From Octopus vulgaris (Eukaryota), in assembly GCA_951406725.2 (NCBI GenBank), contig OX597825.1, positions 63,798,001 through 63,862,000 on the forward strand: a stretch of 64,000 bases of DNA. Reading direction: 5' to 3'. Below are positions 81 to 21,258 of this stretch, piece by piece. The notes under the pieces are model-generated. The model was not told the origin of the DNA and made no database searches. It was given only the letters and a program-made list of their open reading frames with translations. How positions within the stretch are numbered: the first letter of the stretch is position 1; every line of letters starts with the position of its first letter. The position numbers and the translations under genes were made by a program.

Positions 81-154
81 GTCTATCTATTTATAAATTT
101 ATATATTAATTTCTCTCTCTCGGTATATATATATATATCTATATATATATACAC

Positions 155-189
<35 letters not shown>

Positions 190-191
<2 letters not shown>

Positions 192-1145
192 GTCCAGCAG
201 ATTGTAAAACGAGGCCTTGACGTCGTCTTCAGAAGTGAGAGTACACTTAAGGCATCTGTCTCGAATAAGCGGGATCCGAACAATCAGCAGGTGTTCGCTG
301 ACAGCAGTTTGGACCAGTCTGTTGATCCACGAGTTTCGTTTCGATGGCAAGGCCAACACCGTGGATGCGTCTTCCGTTAGGATTTTTTCTCTTCCAAAAC
401 ATGGTGTATTTGGAGCCAGCTTCTCTGATGCTGCCTTCTCCAGGAAGCTACTCTCGCTGAAGGCTGCCACGTCGATGCAGAAGTGGGCAAGTTCCGTCCA
501 GACGAGGGCTGTTCGTCGCTCCGAACGATTAATGCCACTATTGTCCTGGAGAGTGCGGATGTTTCTGGCCGTCAGAGGTTTTGAAATAAAGGATTTAGTT
601 TAGATGATGGATGAGTAGAAGTAGAATTTTGGCCGCTGAATGGGAGGTCCACCAGCTGCGGTATGCCGGCCAGATTGAGTTGCCCTGTCCGATGTTTACC
701 CCACGTTCTCTAAGAGCTCCTAAAGAGGCTAGCCCTGTCACGAGTCGTGCTGCCGAAATCCAATGTCACGGCTATTCCTTGTAGAGCGACCATCTAAGAT
801 TCGCAGCCAATGTGGGGCATCAAGCTTTCTAAACCTGCCTCTGGCGCCCGCGATACCATCGGCAATGGGTTCTTTTTTCTTGAGACTCAAACAGTAGAAA
901 GACGAAGCTAGTCGCTGAGTAAATTGTTTGAAGTGATCGTAGCTGCACGACAGCCACGCGCATGCACTTGGCCAGGAACTTCTCCATTGCGGGTCAAGTA
1001 TTGAGACGTGCAGTTTTGTTGAGGTTGGTTGCAGCGAAGTGCTGGAGTCTATCTGCCTTTGTCACGCCTGCCCGCAAGGCGTTGCATTCTTCTGCCGGCA
1101 TTACTCCATGGGGGTTTGAGATTGTCCTCTTCTGCTTGCTTTGCC

Positions 1146-1146
<1 letters not shown>
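190..1146 (-). mobile_element. RTE-clade LINE 5' portion: 5' UTR plus frameshifted APE endonuclease N-terminus
   Basis: Minus-strand translation across frameshifts: ARNIRTLQDNSGINRSERRTALVWTELAHFCIDVAAFSES..GSIREAGSKYTMFWKRKNPNGRRIHGVGLAIETK..VSEHLLIVRIPL..TLTSEDDVKASFYNLLDR, matching the RTE APE pattern WNVRTL..ERRTALVARELARYNIDIAALSE..GYTFFW..GVGFA. Bounded by (TG)n and (TA)n. Confidence 0.85.
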
Positions 1147-1197
<51 letters not shown>

Positions 1198-1213
1198 TTA
1201 AATAAATAACTAT

Positions 1214-1445
1214 ATCACCTGATCACTTGACCGACCAGTCCATCAGGCGTCCATTTGACACCGCTGGTCACAGCACGCTGTCTACTACTCTCTGGATCGC
1301 GCCTTTCTCATCCACGTGATCCCAATCGTCCTCCTGAAATCGTAACTCCACCGTCGTGGAGGTCTTCCGGGTGGTCTTTTCCGCTCATGCGGGTACCACT
1401 CGACAACTGCGTGGTTCCACCGATTATCGGTGAGCCTACGATCGG
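1214..1445 (-). mobile_element. 5'-truncated RTE LINE 3' end
   Basis: Minus strand encodes TDNRWNHAVVEWYPHERK/RPPGRPPRRWSYDF..WMRKARSRE (RTE ORF C-terminus), then a short UTR ending CAAGTGATCAGGTGAT. Confidence 0.8.
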
Positions 1446-1556
1446 TGAATACCTACGATCGTTTTAATGGGTTGATCGATAAATTTTTGAATGACAACGA
1501 TCAGGTGAACAGACAGATCTATTAATCTATTGAATAAAAGTAATCACGTGAATAAG
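1446..1556 (+). repeat. 111-bp local direct duplication of 4171-4281
   Basis: tgaatacctacgatcg...cacgtgaataag at both loci with 2 mismatches; this copy runs into (TA)n. Confidence 0.95.
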
Positions 1557-1558
1557 TT

Positions 1559-1646
<88 letters not shown>

Positions 1647-2476
1647 ATATATATGCACACATACATATATAAAGACATAACATAATAAATTATATATTGG
1701 GAAATTCACTCACCTTGATATTGTACCTTAGTAATAAGTTGTACCAATTACTTCCTCACTAGCTCTGATATATCAAACACTCACGAACATATTATTCTAT
1801 ATTCGTATATCCAAGTTTATAATATTAAATCAAATAATACATTCTGAAAGTTATAGTGATTCCTAAATCAAATAGTTTCATAAGCCAGTCCTTAATATTA
1901 TTTTCTGCTCTATACACGCTTGATAAAACGCAGATATTTATCAAATCAATCTCTTAATATGGTGCGTTTATAGGTCACAGAAAAGAATATGAACAGAATG
2001 AGCTAAGTCTTTGTTACGTGAAGGAAACGCATTTATATTTTACCCAATGAAAAAAGAACAAAATAACTACTATCCATAAATTGTTTCATAAAACATAATT
2101 CGTAACACGGATGAGCTTTCAGAACTTTATATGTAGCATACTTTTATAAACTTTCGGGAAGTAAAGCTATTCCTAAGTTTCAGCATACATGCACAAACTA
2201 CATCCTAAACATTTATTAATTAACTGCTTTTATGATCTTAATTGTAAAAGCGAAGATTAAAGGAATTGTTTTGAAATTAGCAAATAGGCAAGAAATTACT
2301 TGAATGGGGCACGTTGAATTATCATCGAGCCCCGAAGGAAGGAAGGAGAGAAAAATCGATCATTGTGAAAGAAAAGTTTACAGCAAATATAATTTCATCG
2401 TTAAACAATTCGCTTCACAATACATACATACATACGTGCGCACGTGTATGTATGGTGATATATACATATCTATAAG

Positions 2477-2539
<63 letters not shown>

Positions 2540-5500
2540 ATATGTATGTGTGTATGTGTGCATATGTGTGTGTGTGTGTATGTAAGTGTATATGTTTTGT
2601 GTCATGTTTTGCGGAGGGTATACTGGTGAAAGCTTGCAAAATTGTTGCGGTGACGAAAAGGAAATATAACGGGCATATGCTTCCGTCACATTTGTCAAAC
2701 TTGCATATCATTCCAAAATAAGGCCTAAAGGGGAAAAGAAAGACCCAGTCGAGTAAAACTTCTTGGTGTTCTCTAATATACATATAAAACAACATATTCC
2801 AGTTCCTCAAAGCAAATGATATGTCTTAAGCGGACTGCAATCAGACCAGCGATTATTTGTATTCATATAGTGTTATTTCTTTTTCTATTCACAATAAGAT
2901 TTCTTTAAAGAAATTAGCTTTTTATTTCTTGCAGATTAAATTGAAAGAAACAAAAAAAAAAAAACATCATGTTCTTAAATTGTATGTCTGCATTGCAAAT
3001 TAGAGTGTGATTCTGACGGATAGCACTACAATACTAATATAAAAGCAAAGACCAATGTAATTCCTTAAACAAACTGTCATGTACGAGTACTATTCCATTT
3101 CATTGCTTTATCACTAAATTAATTTACTAACTACTCTAATATGAGAAATGAATGACAAAAGCTGTGAATAATTTAGTACAAGTTTAGCAACTGATTGTCA
3201 ATAAATTTCAAATTGAATTTTATAGATTTGTATGGAGCAGTCAACCTTGTACCATTTGATGTACCGCTTTAAAATAATTTTTATCACTTATACTGCAAAT
3301 CTACTCTCATATAAAGTAGAATAATTTCTATTGCGAAATGTTTTCTTAACTAAACGGAGAAAAATATTGTCATAGACTATATATAATCAAATGCGTTAGT
3401 TCGTTTTACATGAAAGAAAATTATTGCCCAAACTGCTATATGTTCATAAGGAAATCTAATCTTAGTATGCAATATATTAATAATTTTGATTCACCTTCAT
3501 AATAGCTGATCACAATTTTTAAACTGCAATATTCCAAATGTGTTCAAGTAGACGCTATGCTATATAATGGTCGCCTTAAAGCTATATTTGCCAATTTAAT
3601 ATAGGAGCGGTAAAGTTTTTTAAAAGAAATACTGTGATTCAAGTGGCAAAATGCAATATATTGCACGTTCCATGCTTCATATTCTCCAAGTACTTTGTCC
3701 ATTGTAATATGTAGAGAAACTGAGCAAAAGGAATAAAAAAAAGTATAATCTAAATTTGATTTTTGTGGCGGAATAGAATGAAATAATAACAACACGTTTT
3801 GTACTTAAGCTGAGTCGCTTTTCAGTATTAAGCAAATTAGCCACTTAACTTCATATTTTTTTATTGATAAAACATAACACTGAAATGATTGCATGGGGTT
3901 GGTGTTAATACCAACATCGATAAACTGTTGCATGATAATCATTTTATTAGATTGAAGTCTAGACTACCGTGTTAAAAACTTAAGACAACTTCTATCAAGC
4001 GAAAATGAAATATATCTCAGAATACTTATCATCAATAACATCAATATAGTTCAGTGTTCTTCGTCCTCTTTTACAATGCGGATGTGTGCAACATATATTT
4101 TGGAGATTTGGATTGAGATACAATTTATTCAATGAACATGATTGTACTAATAAGCTAATTTAGCATCTCCTGAATACCTACGATCGTTTTAATGGGTTGA
4201 TCGATAAATTTTTGAATGACAATGACCAGGTGAACAGACAGATCTATTAATCTATTGAATAAAAGTAATCACGTGAATAAGCTGATATATATCTATTCAT
4301 TGACAACACACATAAAATGTCTGATCGATTATCACTGCAAAGACCATGATATTACCAGATTGATCTATGATAAATTGATTAACCATGATCATGTTAACAT
4401 ACTGATCATGACAAGTGAGATAGTTCTGAGACTTTAATCAGATAAACTAAAGTAATTAAAGCGCACCATTTGATTACAAATGAACAATTTTAGAACTAAT
4501 ATTTTCTTATTGTGGTGAACAGGGGTTGTCACCACTAATCTCTGTCCCCCTATTAGTACTATAAACAAATATGATTCTCCCAAATGTTTTATGTTTGCTA
4601 CATGCATTCAGTGCCTAAACGTTAGACTCTTTTATCCTTTTATCCTTTACTCTCCATATGTTTTACCCATGTTACCCAAACAACCTTGAATTGGTAAACC
4701 TCAAAATTTCAAAAATATCATACTCTCCTTTTCAAATCAGAGCATACTTGAGTTTAAATTGCGGAACCAATTTCAGGATTTACAAGAGAAAATATTGGTT
4801 TTGGAATTCTACTCGGTATTGTATTGTTGATGTAATAGTTTGAAATGCTGCTTAGCGTTTAGTCCACGCTGTAACGTCTCTGCCAGCTAGCGACATTAAT
4901 AGCTGATATAAGGATTTGAAACAATTTAAAGGTCTTCAAATGCCACACATTGATAACCAAGGATTTTCTGACTTTATCCAATTACTGAACATCATTGATA
5001 TATTGTTACTTTATCTAACCGATTTCGGAAAGCGGCTACGAAAGATCACAGCGACTGGATTTAAGCTCACAACGTAAAGACCTTTTACTAAATACAACAA
5101 TGTATATTTTTACGATTCCACCAATCCACAGCTAAAACATAATACAATGGGAATGGAATCACTCGACCTGGACAAAGAAAAGCGTAGCGGAATTAAACAT
5201 ATAGCTCTCTTCTAATTAAATAATTCCATTAATTCACCTTCTATTTTTCTCAACCGAGTTAGACATCTCTTCCATGCATCGGACAGATTTAGTTCACGTT
5301 GAAAATGATATCAGTGAATCAGCTTACTATTTGCTGAAGCAGACATAAATTAGATTTCTCAGATTCTGCTGTTCTAATTTGTCATTAGTATGTAAAAGAA
5401 ATACGATAAACTAATTTCCATTTATATCTTTCGCAATTGTCCACAACGAGGGTCAGCAGATTGGTAGTATAACATATATATGTTATAAAGAGCTCTGATA

Positions 5501-5649
5501 TTTTCATATAACAGAATATATCATAATATAATGAAAATTGATTTTATTACATACGTTGTTGTTTTGTATTGAAAGAACAGTCGATCTTCACTCTAATATT
5601 TTCCCTTCAAACTAGTATATAGACTGGACGTCTATATATTAGATTATAC

Positions 5650-5694
<45 letters not shown>

Positions 5695-5729
5695 CACACA
5701 CATACATACATACATACATACATTCATAC

Positions 5730-5792
<63 letters not shown>

Positions 5793-5939
5793 TATTCATA
5801 TTCCTCACCGAATACATTTGGAAATGTTCCATAACGTTTCATGTGGTTTTACAAATGGATGGCAAGCGGCCATTCACTCAACGTATACTCTGAATGTTAA
5901 TATTTTGTTACATAAAAAGTCCTTAGTTAAATGTGAGAT

Positions 5940-6003
<64 letters not shown>

Positions 6004-6302
6004 GCACTAACTTGCTTATGTGTGTAATATGGATTATACTATATTATATAATATTATATTATATTATGTTACACTATTCCTGTGTATTTTCGCATGTCAA
6101 ATGCAGGTAGCATAATGATTAAAAGTTAAGTATATACATATAATGAAACCAGGAAACTTAGAAGTTTACACATCTAAGTACCTAATTGTGATATTCAGGA
6201 TTATGGGAATATTGTATAAATTGCGGAGAGAGAAATAGATACTTAAGTAGAACTGATTATGCCAATAGATAAAGGAATTAATGTATACGCTGGATAATTA
6301 TG

Positions 6303-6303
6303 C

Positions 6304-6385
<82 letters not shown>
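6303..6385. repeat. (TAG)n microsatellite
   Basis: Direct reading. Confidence 0.95.
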
Positions 6386-7660
6386 TATAGGAAGTATTGA
6401 GTTAGGAGAAAGGGAAGGAAAACGATGATGAACAGGTAGGATCAAATATGAGAAATGGAAGTATACTTTGAAGAAAGTGGAGAAAATATATTGAGCTGCA
6501 TAAAAAATGGCAACACTAACCGCATTGGGAAAGTAATCCATCAATCAAGTTTGTAACGGGAGAAAAGATCTTGACGATAAGAACTAAATATGAAGTTAAC
6601 GAAAAGGGCCCAAGTGTGGAATACGGAGTGGGATCTGGAAATATGTCATCAGTTAACTCAAGATCTTTGGATAACCATGCGAGCAAATACAGATATTTGG
6701 CCTGAGAATGTAGAGAAGATACGCATTTTGTTGCACGCACTATCGGGCCTTTTTACGTCACAGGCGTTTGTAGAATTGAAGCGAGAGAGAATGATTTTTC
6801 ATGGCTAATTTACTAGTAAATTACTAGGGGAGTATTTGAGAGTTGACTGCTGAAAATGTATGAGAAAAATGTACACCACTTGGAATAAAGATAATGGAGA
6901 AACACTTAGATGGAAGGAGCATAGGACAGCCAGCAAAGAGTTTCTGGGAAGAGAAAAAATAAAGCAGATATGTTTGAACGTAGAATTACGTCATAGATTC
7001 TCATTTGGTCTTTTCTGCCGACCAACTATTGAGAGAGTGTAACACTCAAGCATCGAAACACCCAATGACATTTGGGCTACAACTGATGATACTTGTTCTA
7101 CTGGGCTAAGTTTAGTTAGGTAAGGTTACTGAAGAAATAATATTTTATTTTGTTTTTCTGCTTTTTAATTATGCCGAGAGATGTGAAGTGAAATGCAATG
7201 TAGCTTTTGTGAAAATGTCGGTATTGTATATATGTACATGTATACATATATACAATACATACACTCACACATACAAACACACATTCACACACACATACAC
7301 AAACATATACAATGCCTTTAAAATATAAAGTATATGCATACGTGTAAATATATGCACGTCTAATATGTATATATACATATACACATACATGTATATGTAT
7401 AATTGCAAACACATACACTCAAAAATAGATTAAAAATCACATAAACCCATACATATATATGTATATATATATGTAAATTTAAACACGTTTACATTCATAT
7501 AGGTATGTATATATATATATATATATATATACATGCATGTATACATACACGCATGTATCAATATTTATGAAGTAAATCGCATGCAGATATACACGCGCAT
7601 ACACACACACACGTGTGTGGAGATATATGTAGATATATAGATAGATAGATAGATAGAAAT

Positions 7661-7715
<55 letters not shown>

Positions 7716-9271
7716 TCTGTTATTATATGATTATGTATACGTGAAGATCACTAAGCGTGTACCGCAGTTTCGCACGTAAATTTGATGTATATGGTGGTGC
7801 ATACTCACACTTGTGCGTACACACACGCACACACACAAATGTACTCACACAGACACGCACAAACACACCGTTACATGTATATATCTACATAAATGGTTAC
7901 ATCATTTATTATACATATTTGTTGTATTAAGGAGCCCATGTAGTTTAACAATTTTCTATTTTCTTGATACTCTTTCTCCCTATATGTTCGTGCATTTAAT
8001 TATACTTGATACCCGAACAGATTTTACAGTTCAGTTTAACATTTTGATCCCAGATTCCGATTATTTAATATTTTACCCTCTCAACTATTTCTTAAAATGC
8101 TTTACCCTTAGCTCTAAAATCATTGGTATTGGGGTGGGGCATAATCAGTATGTGCACATTTTAATTACTCGCTGGTTTCTTTGATATAAAAATAAATTAG
8201 TTAAATATTAGAGAAGACTATGAAATGTGATTACTAGTCTGTTGGAGATAAATAGACAATCTAAAGGAAGATATAATAAACCGTATGTACACAAAAATGA
8301 TAGATATAAGTGGGCATTTAAAAATTTGAGCGTGTTTGTTTGATGTCGATGGGTGGGTAAGAAACACATAAAGTGAGAAAACCATTGATAGTTATACTAC
8401 AAGGTTGATATATATGATAATTGAAGAAAGGAACCTGTGAGAAGCATTGTGGTAGAGAGAGAGAGAGAGAGAGAGAGAGAGTGTGTGTGTGTATAAAAAG
8501 AGGGAAAAACAGAAAGGATGTATAGATGAATCAATAAGGTGAAGAAATATATTTTCGAGAAAGAAACGTACCAGTAAAGTCAGAATACAAAGACACGTAG
8601 TAAAACGGAAATTAATGGAGAGCAAGATGGTTAACATTAAATCTACGTGATCTAAAGAACAGCAAATTTGAAACGGTGATATAGATGGAATAGTGTGTTA
8701 GATTGAAAGAGAAACATTTATAATGGTTTGGAGAAGAGAGAAAGCTGCTTAATTGGTAAGTAGGTTGGTTGGTGTACAATCATTAATACAAGACACATTT
8801 CTTGAGCTACGACATGTGTGCATTCATATTGTTTTAATAATGACTGTTACGCATTCTCCATTTGACAAGAAGTAACAGTGCGTACCCTAAACAAAGACAG
8901 ATTTCCCAGAGGGTGCAGAATATAATAAGGTAAAATTATATTATCAGAATTTTCTACAGAGATTAGCATTAATTTAATCATATTTACACTACAATATCTC
9001 TCACAGAATTTTATAATTGCTTTGTCATAGATAAATATCCCTGAACGACAAATCGGAAATGTAGCTTTAATGACCATAGTATCTCGTGAATTTACTTAGC
9101 AGTCTTATGGGAAAAAAGAGGACTAGCATACGCACGACTAGATCATTTAAGTTTTCTGGCAAAATTATTGAAACTAATCAACTACCAGCATCATAAGAAA
9201 GTTCCTTAAACAAGTCATACAATGATATAAGAGTGACCACTTGATAAGTACTAATATTTATTCAGTGTTAT

Positions 9272-9504
9272 GAGGCGGCGATATGGCGGAATCGATAACA
9301 CGCCGGGGAATGCTTAGTGGACTGTTTATCCGTCCTCACATTCTGAGTTCAAATTTAGATGAGGTCGACTTTATCATTCATCCAATTCGACCGTGGTCTG
9401 TTTTCAGGCTCAATAAAATGAGTACCAGTTGAACAGTGGGGTCGATATCATTGACTTATCCACTCTCAACCGGATTTGCTGGCTTTGGGCTAAAATTTGA
9501 AACT
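9272..9504 (+). mobile_element. tRNA-derived SINE with Meta/MESC-like central domain (diverged)
   Basis: ggcggcgatatggcggaatcg head, gagttcaaat B-box-like motif, gaggtcgacttt..ttcatcc..ataaaatgagtaccag core; homologous to 34844-35236 and 59072-59294. Confidence 0.75.
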
Positions 9505-10051
9505 AATACTTATTCAGGATTATACATCACTATATATTGTTTCGCCAAAACCTATGCAAAGCTGTAGTTCATACACATTTATAAATTCCTGCTACCCCCA
9601 GCAGCGAAACGACCAGATCTTGTGAATTCTGCCTCCCATGGCTTTGTCAATAATGGACTCCCGGCCGCTAAAAGCAACAGCAATCTATCTCCGCCAGTGA
9701 TATGTAGAACCCCAGTGCGAGAACTAGCGGAGGTGTCACGATTTACCAGGGAGAATATAATGTATAAGTTATTAGATTTATAGATAATGTATAATATGTA
9801 AAATACAGTCCATTATGCTAATACAACTGCCCATTATTCAAAGCCTTTCGCAAAATCAAAAAAGATAACTGATTGAAAAACGAAATATATATTTCGTAAA
9901 AAAGAATGCCAGCACTGACACGGCCAAACCGAAAAAGTAAGCGGTTCAAACACGCGCAAATGTATGTACTGCCTAATTCACTCTAATATCAAACATTGCT
10001 GTTCTAAATAATCTATGCATATAAACATATATCATATATATATATATATAT

Positions 10052-10273
10052 ATATGAAGTTAACAATAAGGGACCAAGTGTGGAATACGGAGAGGGATCT
10101 GGAAATATGTCATCAGTTAACTCAAGATCTTTGGATAAACATGGGAGCAAATACAGATATTTGGCCTGAGAATGTAGAGAAGATACGAATTTTGTTGAAC
10201 GCACTATCGGGCCTTTATACGTCACAGACGTTTGTAGAATTGAAGCGAGAGAGAATGACCTTCATGGCTAATT

Positions 10274-10278
<5 letters not shown>
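10052..10278 (+). repeat. ~227-bp local direct duplication of 6588-6815 embedded in (TA)n
   Basis: atgaagttaac...atggctaatttacta at both loci, about 13 differences; this copy has (TA)n on both sides. Confidence 0.95.
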
Positions 10279-10331
<53 letters not shown>

Positions 10332-10439
10332 ATTATTATTATTATTATTATTATGCCACATTCATATATGTTTGTGTGTGCGCGTGTGTACATGTGTGCA
10401 CGAGTGTGTGCGTATGCACAGCTTACAAAGGGCGTTTTA

Positions 10440-10650
10440 ATCTCTTTCTTGTTTCAGTCATTTGAATGCGGCCATGCTAGAGTACAGCCTTCGAAGGCTG
10501 TAGACGAACAAATGGACACAAGGACTAGTACTTATTCACAAGCCTAGTACTTGTTCTATCGGTCTCTTCTCCCGAACCGCAAGGTTACACACATACAACG
10601 GTCGATGCGAAACAACAGCTATGAATGGGGACAAACCCAGACACAAACTT
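10440..10650 (-). mobile_element. SINE family A, 3' half
   Basis: cttgtttcagtcattt..ggccatgct..agcctagtact..tctatcggtctc..ccgaaccgc matches the 12651-13364 copies. Confidence 0.75.
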
Positions 10651-10716
10651 ATAGATTTATGTATCTATGTATAGATATAATCATATACATAGATGTGTGT
10701 GTATGTGTGTGTGTGC

Positions 10717-10764
<48 letters not shown>

Positions 10765-10936
10765 AATATTAGGGAATAAATCCAAATTTACAGGGAAAAA
10801 ATCAGATTTAGGATTAAATCCAATTTTATAGTAAAATATTATAAAATATTATTAGAGACAAAACCACTATTTTGCAAAACAAACAAGGAAAGACTTAATC
10901 AATACATAAAATTTTAATAAATAGTCAAATAAACCG

Positions 10937-10979
10937 CCACTACAATTGTTTCTTGTCTTGATCGACAATCTTCAGGTGG
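10937..10979 (-). ncRNA. Mirror copy of the hammerhead ribozyme
   Basis: Exact reverse complement of 11027-11069 in the left palindrome arm. Confidence 0.8.
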
Positions 10980-11026
10980 ACTTCCAATAAATCAGTTTCA
11001 AATTATGAAACTGATTTATTGGAAGT

Positions 11027-11069
11027 CCACCTGAAGATTGTCGATCAAGACAAGAAACAATTGTAGTGG
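11027..11069 (+). ncRNA. Minimal type-I hammerhead ribozyme (intact core)
   Basis: ccac-CTGAAGA-ttgtc(gatcaa)gacaa-GAAA-caattg-TA-gtgg: stem I ccac/gtgg, 5-bp stem II, palindromic stem III, predicted cleavage after GUA (11065). Confidence 0.8.
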
Positions 11070-11156
11070 CGGTTTATTTGACTATTTATTAAAATTTTAT
11101 GTATTAATTAAATCTTTCCTTGTTTGTTTTGCAAAATAGTGGTTTTGTCTCTAATA

Positions 11157-11202
<46 letters not shown>

Positions 11203-11264
11203 TATATATATAGTAGTAACAGAAAAGAGGAATTTCGTTTATCCGCACGTGGTAAGTTGTAATG

Positions 11265-11558
11265 TATACAAGAAATTAAAAAAGGAAAATACGCACACTT
11301 ACATAGTTTTAATGCAATTTTTAATATATCGACCGGTTTCGCTATCGCTATTCATGATATTATGTTTTACCTATTTGAATATATATTTTTTCCCAAGAGG
11401 AAATGTTGTCCATGTTGTGTGTGATTGGAATTCACTCGTGAATTTCATCATACACAACATGGAGAAAAGAAAAACATAATATCATGAATAGCGATAACGA
11501 AACCGGTCAATATATTAAAAATTATATTAAAACTATGCGTATTTTCCTTTTTTAATTT

Positions 11559-11566
<8 letters not shown>
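11265..11566. mobile_element. Second inverted-repeat element (arms 11265-11368 / 11471-11566), probable PLE remnant with hammerhead-like motif
   Basis: ~95-bp arms; right arm has taatat-catgaata-gcgataac-GAAA-ccgg-TC-aatatatta; between (TA)n tracts. Confidence 0.55.
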
Positions 11567-11616
<50 letters not shown>

Positions 11617-11638
11617 TATATAAACTGAATGTTTATAA

Positions 11639-11770
11639 TCCACTCACAGGCTTTCCGTCGGCCCGAGACTATACTAGAAAACAATTGACCCAGGTTCCAC
11701 ACAGTGTGACTGAAGCCGGAACAATGTGATTGGTAAGAAAGCTTCTTACCAAGCAGCTACGATTGCACCT
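11639..11770 (-). mobile_element. SINE family A, 5' part (diverged)
   Basis: tccactcacaggct..gtcggcccgagactata..gactgaagccggaac..ggtaagaaagctt matches family A head. Confidence 0.65.
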
Positions 11771-12063
11771 AAATTATTTTCCACTTCAATAATTTTATGT
11801 TGTCATATTGTATCGGGACTCTATTTCAAGTCGTAGATGCATTTCTATTATTTTTAAAGTCTTAGATAAGAGAATCAGTTTCTTGCAACTTAAAAAATGC
11901 TCTTTTTTGGTCTGAGAGTTCTTTTAATACAAATCTGATTTCTATTTATGTGTCAGAGAGGCTGTTCAAAACCCACGCATTCACACAGAGAATGATTTGC
12001 ACATGCGCACACAAATACGTACATATATATACACACAAACACACACAAATACGTACACACAGC

Positions 12064-12145
<82 letters not shown>

Positions 12146-12613
12146 CACACATACACAGACCGTCAGAAACACGGACACACATACATATATACATACATAC
12201 ATGCATACATACAAACATACATACATACATACATACATACATACATACATACTACATCGAGTACAATTTGTGATAGATCAGAATAAATGGAAGTAAATAA
12301 GATAAATATCGCAAAAAGATGGAAAAAAAACTCATAAGAAATCATGTACTATTTCAAGATGTGAATTCATTTTAGACAATAGTAGTTCCTAAATAGAATA
12401 ATAGAGTATATTTTGGGTGTGTATTTCTCATAGGCAGTAGAAGGTGAGTTAGGGGTCAGGTCACAATGACATCTATAATCCTGTGTAACTGAAAACGCAA
12501 ACATAAACACGTATGCATATAACGACACACATAGAAACACACGAGGGTAAACATCAAATAGAAGTTCTGGTAAGTAAAACTGAAGAGAAGAAATGGACGG
12601 ATTTGTATGTGTA

Positions 12614-12650
<37 letters not shown>

Positions 12651-12653
<3 letters not shown>

Positions 12654-12992
12654 ACTTTTTACTTGTTTCAGTCATTTGACTGTGGCCATGCTGGAGCACC
12701 GCCTTTAGTCGAGCAACTCGACCCCGGGACTTAATCTTTGTAAGCCCAGTACTTATTCTATCGGTCTCTTTTGCCGAACCGCTAAGTAACGGGGACGTAA
12801 ACACACCAGAATCGGTTGTCAAGCAATGCTAGGGGGACAAACACATACATATATACGACAGGCTTCTTTCAGTTTCCGTCTACCAAATCCACTCACAAGG
12901 CATTGGTCGGCCCGGGGCTATAACAGAAGACACTTGCCCAAGATGCCACGCAGTGGGACTGAACCCGGAACCATGTGGTTGGTTAGCAAGCT
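12651..12992 (-). mobile_element. tRNA-derived SINE family A (CORE-like motif, internal TA/CA tract)
   Basis: Minus strand: gcttgctaaccaaccacatggttccgggttcagtcccactgcgtggcatcttgggcaagtgtctt...ggcggtgctccagcatggccacagtcaaatgactgaaacaagtaaaa; many homologues in the window. Confidence 0.85.
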
Positions 12993-13002
12993 ATATATTT
13001 TT

Positions 13003-13364
13003 TTTTACTTGTTACTTGTTTCAGTCATTTGACTGTGGCCATGCTGGAGCACCGCCTTTTGTCGAGCAAATCGACCCCAGGACTTATTCTTTGTGAGCCT
13101 AGTACTTATTATATTGGTCTCTTTTTGCGAACCGCTAAGTTACGGGGACGTAAACACACCAGCATCGGTTGTCAAGCGATGTTGGGGGGACAAACACATT
13201 CACACACATACATATACATGTATATATACGACGGGCTTCTTCCTGTTTCCGTCTACCAAATCCACTCACAAGGCTTTGGTCGGCCCGAGGATATAGTAGA
13301 ATACACTTGCCTAAGATGCCACGCAGTGGGACTGAACCCGGAACCATGTGGTTGGTAAGAAAGC
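13003..13364 (-). mobile_element. SINE family A, second tandem copy
   Basis: Collinear with 12651-12992. Confidence 0.85.
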
Positions 13365-14251
13365 AGTATATATATATATGTATGTATATGTGTGTGTATG
13401 GTGGTATATTTGAACGCGTATATGCATTACATATGTGGGAAATTCTGTCTGTGTTTAGCTAATTTCTCCTACATCATTTTCTCAATTTTGATGAGACTTG
13501 ACAGGTGAGTGGAACTCATGTCTGGAAGCCTCCTGTCTTACTCAAATTGTTGAAAAAATAATAAAGCCCCTGGAAGTGATCCTTACATATATATATGTAT
13601 GATATATTTTACATTAAAAGCCAAGGGAAATAACACAGTCTCCCCTGGAAAGCCATTCATTTTCCTAAATTATGTTGTAAAATGATATTGACTATGCTCA
13701 TTTCTTAGTGTTAGAAATTATAGAATTATTTTCGCAATGTATCTCGTACAATCCTTAAACAAGTAAATAGTATTTTCCTAAACAATATATCCACTTATTT
13801 CGGTTAGTGATTTATCCGCGAATATGCCAGCACTATCATCCCTGAATGAATATGTTCTAGAAATGAACAAAAGCCCTTTTCAGAGTTATTCACTTTGAAT
13901 TGTTATTATCTCATATCTGATTAATCTGATATTACGTAACATGCTTACCGATTTTAGTATACGTAACTTATTAGTATTTCCTCCTATGTTCTATATACTC
14001 TGGGAACGCATTAAACCGTTTTCGGGCTACCGGATTTGAATCCTTACTATCGGGTAACTCATTTCATGTTATTATATCTGACTTCACAATTTGCGTATTC
14101 ATAACTTATGGGGAATACCTAAAAATAGGATCTTGTGTAAGACAGTTTGGTATTCTCTGTAAAAGCACAAAAACCGTTTTAAGGGTTAAATACTTTGTAT
14201 TGCTTTTGTTGGATTAGCAAAACAATTATGAGAACGGAACCGCGTGGTATT

Positions 14252-14403
14252 GAGAGCAAAGCAGTGCTGATATGGTCACATTTATTTTGTTGATATTCAC
14301 ACTTACAATTATCCTTTCGTCTATTGTTTTAACTCGAGTGTGACACAGATTTCATGACTAACATTTCCCCATATAGATTAGATATAAGGCGATTACAGGT
14401 AAC

Positions 14404-14410
<7 letters not shown>
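14252..14410 (+). repeat. 159-bp local direct duplication of 17802-17960
   Basis: gagagcaaagcagtgctg...caggtaactataaat at both loci with 2 mismatches; this copy ends in (TA)n. Confidence 0.95.
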
Positions 14411-14475
<65 letters not shown>

Positions 14476-15418
14476 TATGTGTATGTTTGTATGTGTCTTT
14501 CTACGTGTATATATATGTATTTATATGTACTTATCTGCATATAGTTGTGTGTGCTTGTGTTTGTGTTTGTGTGTGTATATGTGTGCCTTCAGGTTTGCGC
14601 TTATTTTTATATACGTATGTTTCCTTGGGTGAGAATATTTATGTAAATGTATCTGTTCATGTGTATGTTATATATGAGGCAATCGTGGAAGAAACTACCT
14701 CAATAAGCATTGTAACTTCCCAATACAGACCGGTGCCTTGAGACGCCCACACACATGAATCATCAGGGATACATCGTCTAGTGTGTGACATGTATAGACA
14801 GATTAATGTCATGGAAAGTTTCGTTAGAATAATCTATTTACTGATCTGATGGCTAAAATGAAACTGCTTACGACCTTCTTCGCCTTCCTATGTAGGTATA
14901 TCACAGTACCTTTTTCTGTATACTGTTTGGCGAATATAGTTCATTGTTGTTTCCTATCAAATAAATATTTGTGTCACGAAAATCACCTATCGTTATAGGC
15001 CCCAAACTATAAAAATACCTCCCATTGAGTCCCTTTAGTTGTTTATCTCACAGGTATTTTTCTAAGATTGTTGTGTATTTACAATTTATTAGTCTACCTT
15101 TCTGATGATCTGGACCATACGATGGAATGGATTGTATAAATCAAATTTATAATTTGTCATAGGCCTCATTCTTGATTATTGTTACCAGAATTATACCCTG
15201 CACGCACGAAATAAAAGATATGCGTTTCTCTCTCTCTCATACAGGGGTGTAATATTACGTAATGGCCCTACAAGCTCACATAGAAGAGATAATTTTCGTT
15301 GGTAATGTCTAGAGGTGTAACTGATACATAAATTTTATTGCGCATATGATGTGTTCTCACCCATTTCCACATGCGTATGTGTTTGTATGTATATATGTAA
15401 ATAAATAAGTACACACAC

Positions 15419-15474
<56 letters not shown>

Positions 15475-15489
15475 TTATATATATGTATA

Positions 15490-15569
<80 letters not shown>

Positions 15570-15696
15570 GTATATTCATATATATATATACACCAGAAAA
15601 CTATATGGTATTAACCATACGTTTCTGGTGCATCTAAGTTAAGTACCGCATTCAACTGAATTCATTAGAACTGGCTTGAATCTTAATTGCTTTTAC

Positions 15697-15730
<34 letters not shown>

Positions 15731-15759
15731 CATATATATATATGTGTGTATGTATGTAT

Positions 15760-16505
15760 AAGATAAAACCTATTTGGAAGAGGATCCCTCTCCTTCAATC
15801 ATATAATTTAAATAATCTATATATATATATAATAAGGTTTTTTTGCAAAAAGTTGCTTAAACCACATACCGAAAATGTTAGAAATAGCAGCCAAAAAACT
15901 ACTATTTCTTTTACTACAAAAATAAGTCTCCACAGACAAAAATATTTGTAACTCACATATGGCAAAACAAAGAAGGAAAACAGCGAAATCACACAGTCCT
16001 CGGATTAATTATAGACGTACGTTTCTGGATTACAATCGTAAGGTTTATTCTGCTATCAAGATAATATTTCTCATAAATCTAGAAATGATAGGAAAACCTG
16101 CCTTTTATATTTTCGACCAAGCGACATCGAAAGATACAAAAGTCAACCAGCATATCCACATTTATATAGACAAGTGAATTCGTATTTCCTTACAGAATTC
16201 CACCACGTAAGTCACAAAAACAGTACTGCCGAAAAAAGATTCGTAGTTTTGTCTTAGGGGAGTAAAACAGTCATTACAGATATAGGGTGAAATATAATTA
16301 ATTTAACAAAATCAGCAAATTTCACCTAGTAGTATTTCGGTATGGAAAAGGACCATATTCGGTAAAAATTTATATAATTATAATAATAAGGGTTTTTTTG
16401 CAAAAGAGTAAAGAGATTGCATACAGTGGGTATCAGAATAATTAAGATAAAACTTACTTGGAAGAGGATGCGTGGCGTTTTAATTGTATAATAATATAAG
16501 TAACA
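15760..16505 (-). mobile_element. Probable PLE-derived non-autonomous remnant with degenerate hammerhead (16008-16065)
   Basis: Internal direct repeats (aagataaaac..ttggaagaggat; taataagg..ttttttgcaaaa), homology to 26552-26610, and minus-strand attat-cttgatag..ttgtaatcca-GAAA-cgtacg-TC-tataat; flanked by TA tracts. Confidence 0.45.
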
Positions 16506-16772
16506 TATATATATATCCATAGATACATACGTATATGTACATACTTACATCTATACGTAATAATATATATGCATACGTTGGCGCAGGACGTCACGAAATG
16601 TTATACCAAGAAATACGAAGCATGTGTACAGAGAATATGAACTACTTCTTCGAACACCGAAAGACACTATACACTTTCGATAAAACAGTTGCTCCAGCAA
16701 AGCAAATTAAATAAATTTGGAATTTGGCGGAGGGTTAAAATTGGTAACACAAACAGGACAGTGAAAACAAAC

Positions 16773-16908
16773 AGGAAGGGCTGCTAAATCTAAACGAGGT
16801 TATGATGGTGAACGCGTAAATCACGCTTGGACAGGAGACACAGAAGAACACATCCTCTTTGTTCCTCCTACAATGGAAACACACAGACACACAGACACAG
16901 ACACACAG

Positions 16909-16942
<34 letters not shown>

Positions 16943-17066
16943 GTGTGTGTGTGTGTGTGTGCCCGTTGTAGGTGGAACAATGAGGACGTGTTCTTGTCCG
17001 TCTCCTGTCCAAGCTTGATTTACGCGTTCGCTATGATAACCTCTTTTAGGCTTAGCATCCCTTCCT
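16773..17066. repeat. Imperfect palindrome, ~105-bp arms around a (CA)n/(TG)n centre
   Basis: aggaagggctgctaa..gaacgcgtaaatcacgcttggacaggagac..gttcctcctacaatgg mirrored by ccgttgtaggtggaac..gtctcctgtccaagcttgatttacgcgttc..ttagcatcccttcct. Confidence 0.85.
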
Positions 17067-17081
17067 ATTTTTGACACCTGA

Positions 17082-17325
17082 AAACATCAAATCACATCAC
17101 CACGTCAGCTTCCTCGATCAATCGCAGCCCACCTTGAGGTAATAACAATATCTCTACCTATATATGGATCAAAACAATTTGATTGAAATTCATTGGTACT
17201 CTTGTTTTTTAAGCGTGATGCTAGTCGTAGGCTATTTTGAATTTGAATGAGAAGTAGATTGCTATTACCGTAAGGTGGGCTGCGATTGATCCAGGAAGGT
17301 CACGTGGTGACGTGATTTGATGTTT
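17082..17325. mobile_element. MITE-like element with ~68-bp terminal inverted repeats
   Basis: aaacatcaaatcacatcaccacgt..atcaatcgcagcccacctt..gtaataacaat vs attgctattac..aaggtgggctgcgattgat..acgtggtgacgtgatttgatgttt. Confidence 0.6.
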
Positions 17326-19289
17326 GTATGTGGTTAATTGTTAGTAGGAAAATACCGCATTGCAAACAAAAAAATGTGGAGGATAGGAAATAGAGCACGT
17401 GGCGATTAGAAATCGGTCACGCTGTTGGGAGGTGGAGGATGTATATAACCTTCCTCGACCAATGACTTCTGTCATTCAAATTCAAAATAGCCAAAGACTG
17501 GCATCATGCTTGAAACTCAAGAGTACCAACGAATTTTCATCGAATTGTCTTGATTCATATATGTAACTCCTAATAACTTGGTTGACTGCCCTTCTTTCGT
17601 TTCTGCACTCACTCATATGTGTGTGCGTGCGCGCGTGTATTTGTGTATGCGGCATAATAATTTCCATAATACATTATTGATATCCTTTTACGGTTTAGTT
17701 AGCCATCTTTCGCCGCAGATCTAATGTCCCCACGATAACATTCATAGCCATGTTACACTTATAATATGCTATGATCATTGCGGAAAGGGACAGCTGCTCT
17801 GGAGAGCAAAGCAGTGCTGCTATGGTCACATTTATTTTGTTGATATTCACACTTACAATTATCCTTTCGTCTATTGTTTTAACTCGAGTGTGACACAGAT
17901 TTCATGACTAACATTTCCCCACATAGATTAGATATAAGGCGATTACAGGTAACTATAAATGAGCACTTATACTACTATGATATATATTGAAAAATAAGTT
18001 TTTAAAAAACAACTTTCTGGGCATTGATTTAAGTATTTAAGGTTATGTTTCGCATGCCTATCATTTATTACCAGAACTAACGCCAGCAACATTTCACAAG
18101 CGCATATAAAGGGAGATTCTTTGACATGGCATTGACATCAGAGATCCTGTAAATGGGTTCTCAGTCCACTAACTACAACAGTGAATCGACTGAAGCTTGA
18201 TATTTATCTCTTAGAGAGAGAATACAATGTAGTAAACACAAACATTTATTCTGTATTTACAAAAGATAGGATTATCAAAGCCATATAATGCTTAATCTTA
18301 GGTCATTTTGATTAAGGTTTGCCTAGGGCTATACGATAACAACGCATTGACGTATATTAATGAGGACTTATTTCAAACACATATACACACTATTAATTAG
18401 TCATTCATTCTAATAATTATCTTGTTATGAATTATAATTCTATGGATGCATTAGCACAAGTAATTATCCAATAATTAGTGGGAGACCATAAATATCTTTA
18501 TGTCCTCATATAATATTGTAATTAAAATCTTTGGATCCACATCAGCTTTAAATTCTTTGTATGCACACCATTCATAGCAATTAGGGAGTGCTACTATAGC
18601 TTATCATGTTGAATTAAATAAGTATGTCAAAGTATCGAAGAATTGATACAAAATTCAGGTAAACATGAGATTCCGTGCTGAATACAAAAGTTCTGACGAA
18701 AAATATCTGCTCAGAATCCATGAATTTAAGCATGGAAAGAAATGAATTGCCTACGTACAGAACACGCTAGTGTATTTTTCGTAATAACAGCTATTAAATA
18801 TATTTATAATGGATATATAATTAAAACGTTTCAGTATATCATTCCTATTTATCATCTCTCAGTTATCATAGACGAAGTAACTGCAAAGCTGACCTCATTG
18901 GAATATAAGTACACAACTAATGGACGTCGAAATGAAATGCTAGAATTACTTTATTTCTCCACTATTTATGCCATGTCCTCAAACTTAAACATTTATCTTT
19001 CGCTGAATAAAATTAGAACTCAAAATAATGGGGTAATCTACAGCCAACGAATCTAGTCAACACACAAGACAGCTATTATGCTCTCCCACACAAAAAATCA
19101 CCGCGTGGACTCCGTTGAGACTAGTAAGAAACAATTATTAACTTTTTTATTACACTTAACTTGTAAAAATATTTTTGATAAAGTTCGTAAAATTTCTAAG
19201 AAAAGTAAAATTTATCTTATATAATAGCGTTTTCAAACTTCTTTTTTATAAATATATACCCACTCGTATACCACCTGCACTTACTATAT

Positions 19290-19423: not shown

Positions 19424-21195
<1,772 letters not shown>

Positions 21196-21214
21196 CTTGA
21201 TTATACCTTACTTG

Positions 21215-21258
<44 letters not shown>

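What the first reader, a model, noticed from the sequence alone, without database searches (positions are those of the whole stretch)
1446..17960. Recurrent capture of nearby DNA into (TA)n tracts: three local templated duplications
Seen: 1446-1556 = 4171-4281 (2725 bp apart, 2 mismatches), 10052-10278 = 6588-6815 (3464 bp, about 13 differences), 14252-14410 = 17802-17960 (3550 bp, 2 mismatches). All are direct, non-tandem and 110-230 bp; in each pair only one copy abuts a long (TA)n, and two junctions show TA/AT microhomology. Different divergence suggests repeated events. Inference: breaks at cruciform-prone or PLE-endonuclease-cut TA tracts are patched with sequence from about 3 kb away, by template-switch/SDSA repair or by reverse transcription of local nascent RNA.
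Basis: partly seen in the sequence, partly recalled or inferred. Interest (0 to 1): 0.7.

Follow-up and report, generated by a model that had tools for sequence, protein, structure and literature searches.

The report
Break-repair copies patched into TA repeats
Three 110-230-base pieces of ordinary DNA have each been copied about 3 kb away to the edge of a TA-repeat tract in a large animal genome; they are likely scars of chromosome-break repair of a kind already described in vertebrates, and a preference for TA tracts is suggested but not established.

Summary
Copy 1 sits at the 5'-truncation point of a LINE that inserts in TA tracts, joined through three microhomology switches. Copy 3 replaces the last ~48 bases of an older Helitron, with a 10-base filler. 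Copy 2 lies inside a TA tract. Public runs imply junction 1 in a related species and its absence in one same-species sample; copy 3 is not seen in three related species. Size, spacing, microhomology, deletion and filler match repair-mediated duplications (Pace 2009, PMC2671141), a known class. In 1.6 Mb of other G000 DNA, TA adjacency was 7 of 18 local pairs (2.1 expected), but several were transposon ends; among pairs verified as two-copy it was 2 of 3 (p about 0.05). No kb-range capture at 19 other LINE 5' ends, so retroelement copying is not favoured. The scan has noted similar single local-copy scars elsewhere in this genome.

The parts
1147..1192 (.). (TA)n tract on the 3' side of the LINE
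1212..1436 (-). 5'-truncated 3' end of a non-LTR retrotransposon (RTE-like by a recalled C-terminal motif); family continues past 1436 in other copies
   Evidence: 1863 candidates; RVT_1 in copy L036
1437..1448 (+). switch zone: 1437-1444 repeats donor 4179-4186; 1441-1448 repeats LINE 1426-1433; overlaps ATCG and TGA are the microhomologies
1446..1556 (+). acceptor copy 1 (to 1567 if the ATATATAT microhomology is included)
   Evidence: junction implied in run X4
1559..1654 (.). (TA)n tract at the end of copy 1
4171..4292 (+). donor 1, ending in a short ATATATAT run
   Evidence: unbroken contig in run X2
6588..6815 (+). donor 2
6806..6823 (.). perfect 18-bp palindrome; copy 2 ends at its centre
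10034..10055 (.). (AT)11 left of copy 2, ATAT microhomology
10052..10278 (+). acceptor copy 2, inside a TA tract
10277..10327 (.). (TA)25 right of copy 2, TA microhomology
13419..14241 (+). non-autonomous Helitron-type element lacking the last ~48 bases (hairpin and CTAG)
   Evidence: (1508 candidates, 87-90%)
14242..14251 (+). 10-base filler, no second copy in the window; part of a ~20-base imperfect match to the donor flank
14252..14410 (+). acceptor copy 3
   Evidence: not seen in runs X4, X19, X20
14409..14471 (.). (TA)n tract at the end of copy 3, likely the Helitron's original target
17802..17960 (+). donor 3
   Evidence: single unbroken contigs in X4, X19, X20

Best explanation
These are three real two-copy local duplications, likely made separately when a chromosome break in or beside a (TA)n tract was repaired by a host polymerase that copied 110-230 bases from DNA about 3 kb away and then rejoined the other end through TA/AT microhomology. 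Shown: the copies, their junctions, the 48-base loss and filler at copy 3, the three switches at copy 1, and different distributions among runs. Inferred: that a double-strand break started each event, that the TA tract was there first, that the template was DNA (same chromatid, sister or homologue) and the pathway SDSA-like or polymerase-theta-like. The break source is not shown; cruciform cleavage and nicks by TA-targeting transposons both fit. Copy 1 may have formed while the truncated LINE's 5' end was being joined, or at a later break there.
For: Two places each in G000. Sizes 111-228 and spacings 2.7-3.6 kb lie within the repair-mediated class of PMC2671141 (under 5 kb, mean 162 bp; microhomology, deletion, filler). 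Copy 3: other Helitron copies continue ~47 bases to CTAG (9 of 14 exact CTAG-T), lost here; this Helitron is 87-90% like its relatives but the capture is 98.7% like its donor; near-identical Helitron contigs lie in X2, X19, X20 while X4, X19, X20 each give one unbroken donor contig and no second copy, so capture likely came after the Helitron. Copy 1: LINE-donor-LINE-donor-TA switches at 2-8 base matches. In X4 the donor contig starts exactly at 1446 and bin depths imply a ~41x contig over the acceptor-only bases 1440-1445; X4's donor has the acceptor's letter at 1501. The window LINE is ~3.7% from its family centre while the capture pair differs by 1.8% (8.2 differences expected if equally old, 2 seen, p 0.012). 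Other verified two-copy local pairs exist on C1, C10, C2, two of them TA-adjacent. TA repeats are break sites repaired by MMEJ in human cancer cells (PMC13645644, passages).
Against: The X4 junction is inferred from bin arithmetic, not from a listed contig, and X19 is ambiguous. The raw TA enrichment (7 of 18, p 0.002) is inflated: of 6 outside pairs checked genome-wide, 3 were dispersed repeats, another flanks a transposase-like frame, and the between-chromosome repeat control was also TA-adjacent in 6 of 31 (Fisher p 0.18). Curated: 2 of 3 (p 0.052), or 2 of 5 to 3 of 6 with untested candidates (p 0.12 to 0.02). One verified pair (C2) has no TA tract. The LINE age test ignores CpG decay and subfamily structure.
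Confidence: 0.65

Rival explanations
1. The copies are ordinary repair-mediated duplications at random breaks; the TA adjacency comes from the density of TA tracts, from neighbouring TA-targeting transposons, or from tracts that grew at the junction afterwards, plus selection of this window.
For: 2160 TA tracts of 10+ bases in 1.664 Mb. 13 of 19 LINE copies have TA at the 3' end and 8 of 19 at the 5' end. Control 6 of 31 not different from 7 of 18. At 2-4 events per Mb, about 12-84 windows of the genome would hold three by chance.
Against: 5 of 6 verified two-copy pairs are TA-adjacent in one copy only (3 were picked for that); null chance per pair about 0.11-0.17; CA tracts, 59% as many, adjoin 1 of 18; donor ends carry TA/AT microhomology in all three.
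Confidence: 0.17
2. A retrotransposon reverse transcriptase made the copies: after nicking the TA tract it jumped from its own RNA to local DNA or nascent RNA (copy 1), or primed directly on local RNA (copies 2, 3).
For: Copy 1 begins exactly at the LINE truncation point and switches back to LINE sequence once. The family targets TA tracts. Template jumping is a proposed route for 5' joining (PMC2912911, passages).
Against: 0 of 19 other copies have a capture of 45+ bases from within 5 kb at the 5' end; they show only short fillers and fold-backs. No retroelement at copy 2 or 3; no poly-A or target-site duplication seen. The capture looks younger than the LINE (p 0.012, weak).
Confidence: 0.12
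3. Copy 3 is Helitron capture during rolling-circle transposition (read-through after loss of the terminator).
For: It replaces the hairpin and CTAG end of a Helitron.
Against: The captured piece is not the adjacent flank; it is far younger than the element; no other copy of the chimera in G000; explains neither copy 1 nor 2.
Confidence: 0.03
4. Assembly or read artefacts at TA tracts, or terminal repeats of unrecognised transposons.
For: TA tracts sequence poorly; copy 3 unseen and copy 2 untested in independent runs; several look-alike pairs in my sample were LTRs or terminal repeats.
Against: Copies differ from donors by 1.3-5.7%; each is two-copy in G000; junction 1 is implied in another species' run.
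Confidence: 0.03

Closest known systems
Repair-mediated duplications (Pace, Sen, Batzer, Feschotte 2009, PMC2671141; read parts 1-5 of 8 and a term search; supplements not seen)
   Same: Single donor within 5 kb, 50-619 bp, non-tandem, microhomology, deletion and filler at junctions, no poly-A, lineage-specific and sometimes polymorphic.
   Different: Described in vertebrates and only inside transposons; the words microsatellite, simple repeat and low complexity do not occur in its main text. Here an invertebrate (likely an octopus-like cephalopod, by recall of its repeats and earlier notes; not tested), acceptors at TA tracts, a 48-base deletion longer than their 1-15 bases, and spacing above their mean of 1.2 kb.
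Doublets (Thomas et al. 2004; seen only as described in PMC2671141)
   Same: Short paired local duplications ascribed to break repair.
   Different: Shorter (under 100 bp) and near-identical.
MMEJ repair of breaks at TA repeats (PMC13645644; passages read)
   Same: TA tracts break (cruciform cleavage) and themselves supply the microhomology for rejoining.
   Different: Somatic extrachromosomal DNA in human cancer cells; the passages seen do not describe inherited kb-range captures.
5' junctions of truncated LINEs (PMC2912911; passages read)
   Same: Microhomology and repair at the truncation point, as at copy 1.
   Different: A 111-base capture from 2.7 kb was seen in 1 of 20 copies examined here and does not apply to copies 2 and 3.
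Class 2 templated sequence insertion polymorphisms (PMC5110952; abstract and outline only)
   Same: DNA patch at a break, without target-site duplication or poly-A; polymorphic.
   Different: Templates are distant regions, not neighbours within 4 kb.

Membership tests
Repair-mediated duplication (Pace 2009) | Insert found at only one other place in the genome | tested here: met
   2 places each, (search skips very common words)
Repair-mediated duplication (Pace 2009) | At least 50 bp, donor more than 50 bp and less than 5 kb away | tested here: met
   111-228 bp, 2.7-3.6 kb
Repair-mediated duplication (Pace 2009) | Microhomology, filler or deletion at junctions; no poly-A tail | tested here: met
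Repair-mediated duplication (Pace 2009) | Empty site in a relative or in the repeat family | tested here: inconclusive
   Copy 3 not seen in X4, X19, X20 and copy 1 not seen in X2 (unbroken donor contigs), family sequence shows what was lost; no contig read through an empty site; copy 2 untested
Repair-mediated duplication (Pace 2009) | Formed by SDSA at a double-strand break | not testable with these tools
   inferred from junctions only
TA-tract-directed capture (the novel claim) | Acceptors adjoin (TA)n more often than chance genome-wide | tested here: inconclusive
   7 of 18 raw, p 0.002; 2 of 3 verified, p 0.052; control 6 of 31
LINE-mediated capture at insertion | Recurrent kb-range capture at 5' ends of the family | tested here: not met
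   0 of 19 other copies within 5 kb (1 of 20 loci mis-picked by the script)
LINE-mediated capture at insertion | Poly-A tail and target-site duplication around the insert | tested here: not met
   none seen at the three acceptors; a duplication made of TA would be invisible
Penelope-like element footprint | Penelope end or terminal repeat at the acceptor | tested here: not met
   neighbours are an RVT_1 LINE, a Helitron-type element and plain TA
Helitron (element at 13419-14241) | 3' hairpin and CTAG before T; Pif1-type helicase in related copies | tested here: met
   9 of 14 other copies end CTAG-T; hairpin 11 bases before it folded in L121 and L130; PF21530 upstream of copy L119. The window copy lacks this end.
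RTE clade (element at 1212-1436) | Placement of the reverse transcriptase in the RTE clade | not tested
   RVT_1 shown; clade name rests on a recalled C-terminal motif, no tree

The most novel reading that the evidence does not exclude
In this TA-saturated genome, (TA)n tracts are the main germ-line break sites, and their repair routinely pulls in 50-250 bases from within about 4 kb, giving some 5,000-10,000 local duplications, many still segregating within and between species: an inherited counterpart of TA-repeat fragility known from cancer cells, and a natural record of which polymerase does kb-range template switching.
Probability: 0.4. Interest if true: 0.55.

Novelty: new member of a known kind. 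Interest (0 to 1): 0.32.

Why it matters
It extends repair-mediated local duplication from vertebrates to an invertebrate genome and points to a sequence that may mark the break site, which the original study did not examine. If the TA bias holds genome-wide, it ties microsatellite fragility to inherited structural variation and gives thousands of datable repair scars (2-4 per Mb by extrapolation from 3-6 events in 1.6 Mb). The three copies themselves lie in non-coding, transposon-rich DNA and no function is suggested. My searches (open-access library only) listed no paper joining such duplications to TA tracts or to cephalopods; I read only four papers in part.

Tried and rejected
1. A preferred spacing of 3-4 kb: tempting from the first sample, but one such pair is the two LTRs of a young retrotransposon (312 candidates, pairs ~4.3 kb apart; 927-aa frame between) and another dropped out as a repeat when the sample grew. 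Not claimed. 2. A fourth and fifth event in the window (19424-19476 = 20866-20917; 20720-20788 inverted at 21121-21189): the region is a dispersed repeat (409 candidates) whose other copies also carry nearby inverted ends; excluded. 3. Raw TA statistics: first null too low (0.42 expected), replaced by a conservative null (2.09), then by curation. My hand-picked 'clean' set (6 of 11, p 0.0006) still held at least four transposon-derived pairs and is not relied on. 4. LINE-driven capture as a rule: 0 of 19. 5. Helitron capture: age mismatch. 6. Coding role: the 75-codon open frame shared by donor and copy 2 has no Pfam match. 7. An error-prone-polymerase signature: 8 of 12 substitutions in copy 2 are A in the acceptor (p 0.04 uncorrected), not repeated in other pairs. 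8. No cover of 14263-14412 in X2 and of 1193-1205 in all four runs: uninformative. 9. An ancestral letter at 14270 in copy 3 could not be read, as each contig has an unlisted difference. 10. Orientation to host transcription was not tested. Supplements of PMC2671141 were not seen and could hold acceptor flanks that bear on the TA question.
Full report
Observation. The three pairs are at the stated coordinates, direct, with 2, 13 (12 substitutions and a gap) and 2 differences. A search of the 2.8-Gb genome G000 gave exactly two places for each. The window holds many TA tracts, so adjacency needed a test. The genome is likely that of an octopus-like cephalopod; this rests on recall of its repeats and on earlier notes, and was not tested.

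Copy 1. The 225 bases left of it are the 3' end of a high-copy non-LTR retrotransposon on the minus strand (1863 candidates; RVT_1 in a longer copy; RTE-like by a recalled motif). Other copies continue past 1436, so the capture sits at the truncation point. On the plus strand the junction reads: LINE to 1436; eight bases of donor (1437-1444 = 4179-4186); four bases of LINE again (1441-1448 = 1426-1433, shared ATCG); then donor from a shared TGA for 111 bases; then the TA tract, entered where the donor has its own ATATATAT. Three switches at short matches are the signature expected of iterative microhomology-primed synthesis (established knowledge of polymerase theta and template switching; recalled).

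Copy 3. Its left flank, 13419-14241, is a non-autonomous element with 1508 candidates at 87-90% identity. Of 14 other copies, 9 continue about 47 bases to CTAG followed by T, about half then run into TA-rich repeats, a hairpin folds 11 bases before the end in two of them, and one has a Pif1-type helicase fragment upstream: a Helitron. The window copy has lost that end; ten filler bases and the 159-base copy stand in its place, then the TA tract. This is the deletion-plus-filler-plus-microhomology pattern. The capture (98.7% to donor) is much younger than the element.

Copy 2 lies inside a TA tract with ATAT and TA microhomology; its donor end falls at the centre of a perfect 18-base palindrome (6806-6823). 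No transposon adjoins it.

Independent runs (two layings, all contigs, four runs each). For copy 1, X2 (organism A, the closest label) has one 1884-base donor contig running unbroken across the shared bases and no depth on the acceptor-only bases 1440-1445. In X4 (organism B) the donor contig starts exactly at 1446, extra contigs end at 1475, and the bin depths imply about 41x over 1440-1445: the junction is likely present there, though its contig is not listed. X19 and X20 show no depth on 1440-1445; X19 carries both letters at 1498 and the acceptor's letters at 1557-1558 and is ambiguous. For copy 3, X4, X19 and X20 each give one unbroken donor contig and no second copy, while contigs with 0-3 differences to this Helitron copy occur in X2, X19 and X20; X2 had no cover of the copied segment. 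So the events differ in distribution, copy 1 has indirect outside support, and copies 2 and 3 rest on the assembly.

Is it general? In 1.664 Mb (15 blocks, 15 contigs) I found 22 apparently two-copy pairs 0.5-8 kb apart against 0.3 expected from the between-block rate. Of the 18 outside the window, 7 had a TA tract within 20 bases of one copy only, against 2.1 expected (p 0.002); CA tracts 1 of 18; but between-block pairs, which are dispersed repeats, scored 6 of 31 (Fisher p 0.18). Genome-wide checks of 6 of the 18 gave 3 true two-copy pairs (C1 and C10, TA-adjacent; C2, not) and 3 dispersed repeats, one an LTR pair; in the other two the local partner was still the best match. Frames between copies marked a further pair as likely transposon inverted repeats and one as a direct repeat around a LINE (motifs recalled). 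Twelve pairs were not checked genome-wide. The curated figure is 2 of 3 (p 0.052), 2 of 5 to 3 of 6 with untested candidates (p 0.12 to 0.02). Local duplication is thus genome-wide at roughly 2-4 per Mb; a TA bias is suggested only. Three in one window is uncommon, but 12-84 such windows are expected by chance.

Is the LINE the agent? Twenty further copies were fetched with 5 kb on each side; 19 were analysed correctly. Thirteen have TA at the 3' end and eight at the 5' end; several have short direct or fold-back fillers; none has a capture of 45 bases or more at the 5' end, and one has a 54-base local copy at its 3' end. The window LINE is about 3.7% from its family centre, the capture pair 1.8% apart (p 0.012, uncorrected for CpG or subfamilies). 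Host repair is favoured over a property of the element.

Mechanism. Most likely a break in or next to a TA tract (inferred; TA repeats break through cruciform cleavage and are rejoined by MMEJ in human cells, PMC13645644, passages; transposon nicks fit as well), resection of one end, priming on nearby DNA at a few matching bases, synthesis of 110-230 bases, release, and annealing to the TA end. SDSA, fork template switching and polymerase-theta joining cannot be told apart from sequence.

Comparison. Pace et al. 2009 (PMC2671141, parts 1-5 of 8 read) describe 824 human duplications with donors within 5 kb, mean 162 bases, microhomology, deletions and filler, and no poly-A. The three copies meet the sequence criteria; the empty-site criterion is only partly met. 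That paper's main text does not mention microsatellites. Earlier notes of this scan report single local-copy scars in this genome at Penelope ends and a telomeric tract (unchecked here).

Verdict. A real, well-defined set of repair scars: new members of a known class, in an invertebrate, with an unproven but testable bias to TA tracts. Interest 0.32.

Noticed in passing
window 99-1146, minus strand: Decayed retroelement-like frames (endonuclease-like by recall) next to the truncated LINE; no Pfam match.
   Followed up: partly
window 10853-11153 and 11271-11560: Two ~300-base palindromic elements flanked by TA tracts (97.7% and 70% self-complementary).
   Followed up: no
window 16769-17562: Three interleaved inverted repeats of 68-108 bases, 85-90%.
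   Followed up: no
window 19424-21216: Dispersed element between two TA tracts with a partial direct terminal repeat, an inverted end and a 15-base tandem at the TA junction; other copies also have inverted ends. Penelope-like layout by recall; no Pfam match.
   Followed up: partly
window 10052-10278: 8 of 12 substitutions have A in the acceptor and only 4 are transitions; not seen in other pairs. Its greater divergence may partly reflect copying errors rather than age.
   Followed up: partly
L104:7201 to L105:609 (G000 C16): Very young LTR retrotransposon: near-identical 238-base LTRs, 312 candidates, 927-aa frame.
   Followed up: partly
L166:8755-9949 (G000 C7): LINE fragment between 185-base direct repeats with TA at one side; possibly a very long target-site duplication.
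   Followed up: partly
L213, L220, L224-L227 (5' ends of LINE copies): Short iterated direct or fold-back fillers at truncation points, suggesting the same microhomology-primed joining.
   Followed up: no
L218, 3' end of the LINE: 54-base exact copy of sequence 443 bases away directly after the element.
   Followed up: no
window 1436-1556, runs X2 and X4: Junction 1 appears present in organism B yet absent in one organism A sample: a possible polymorphism shared across species.
   Followed up: partly
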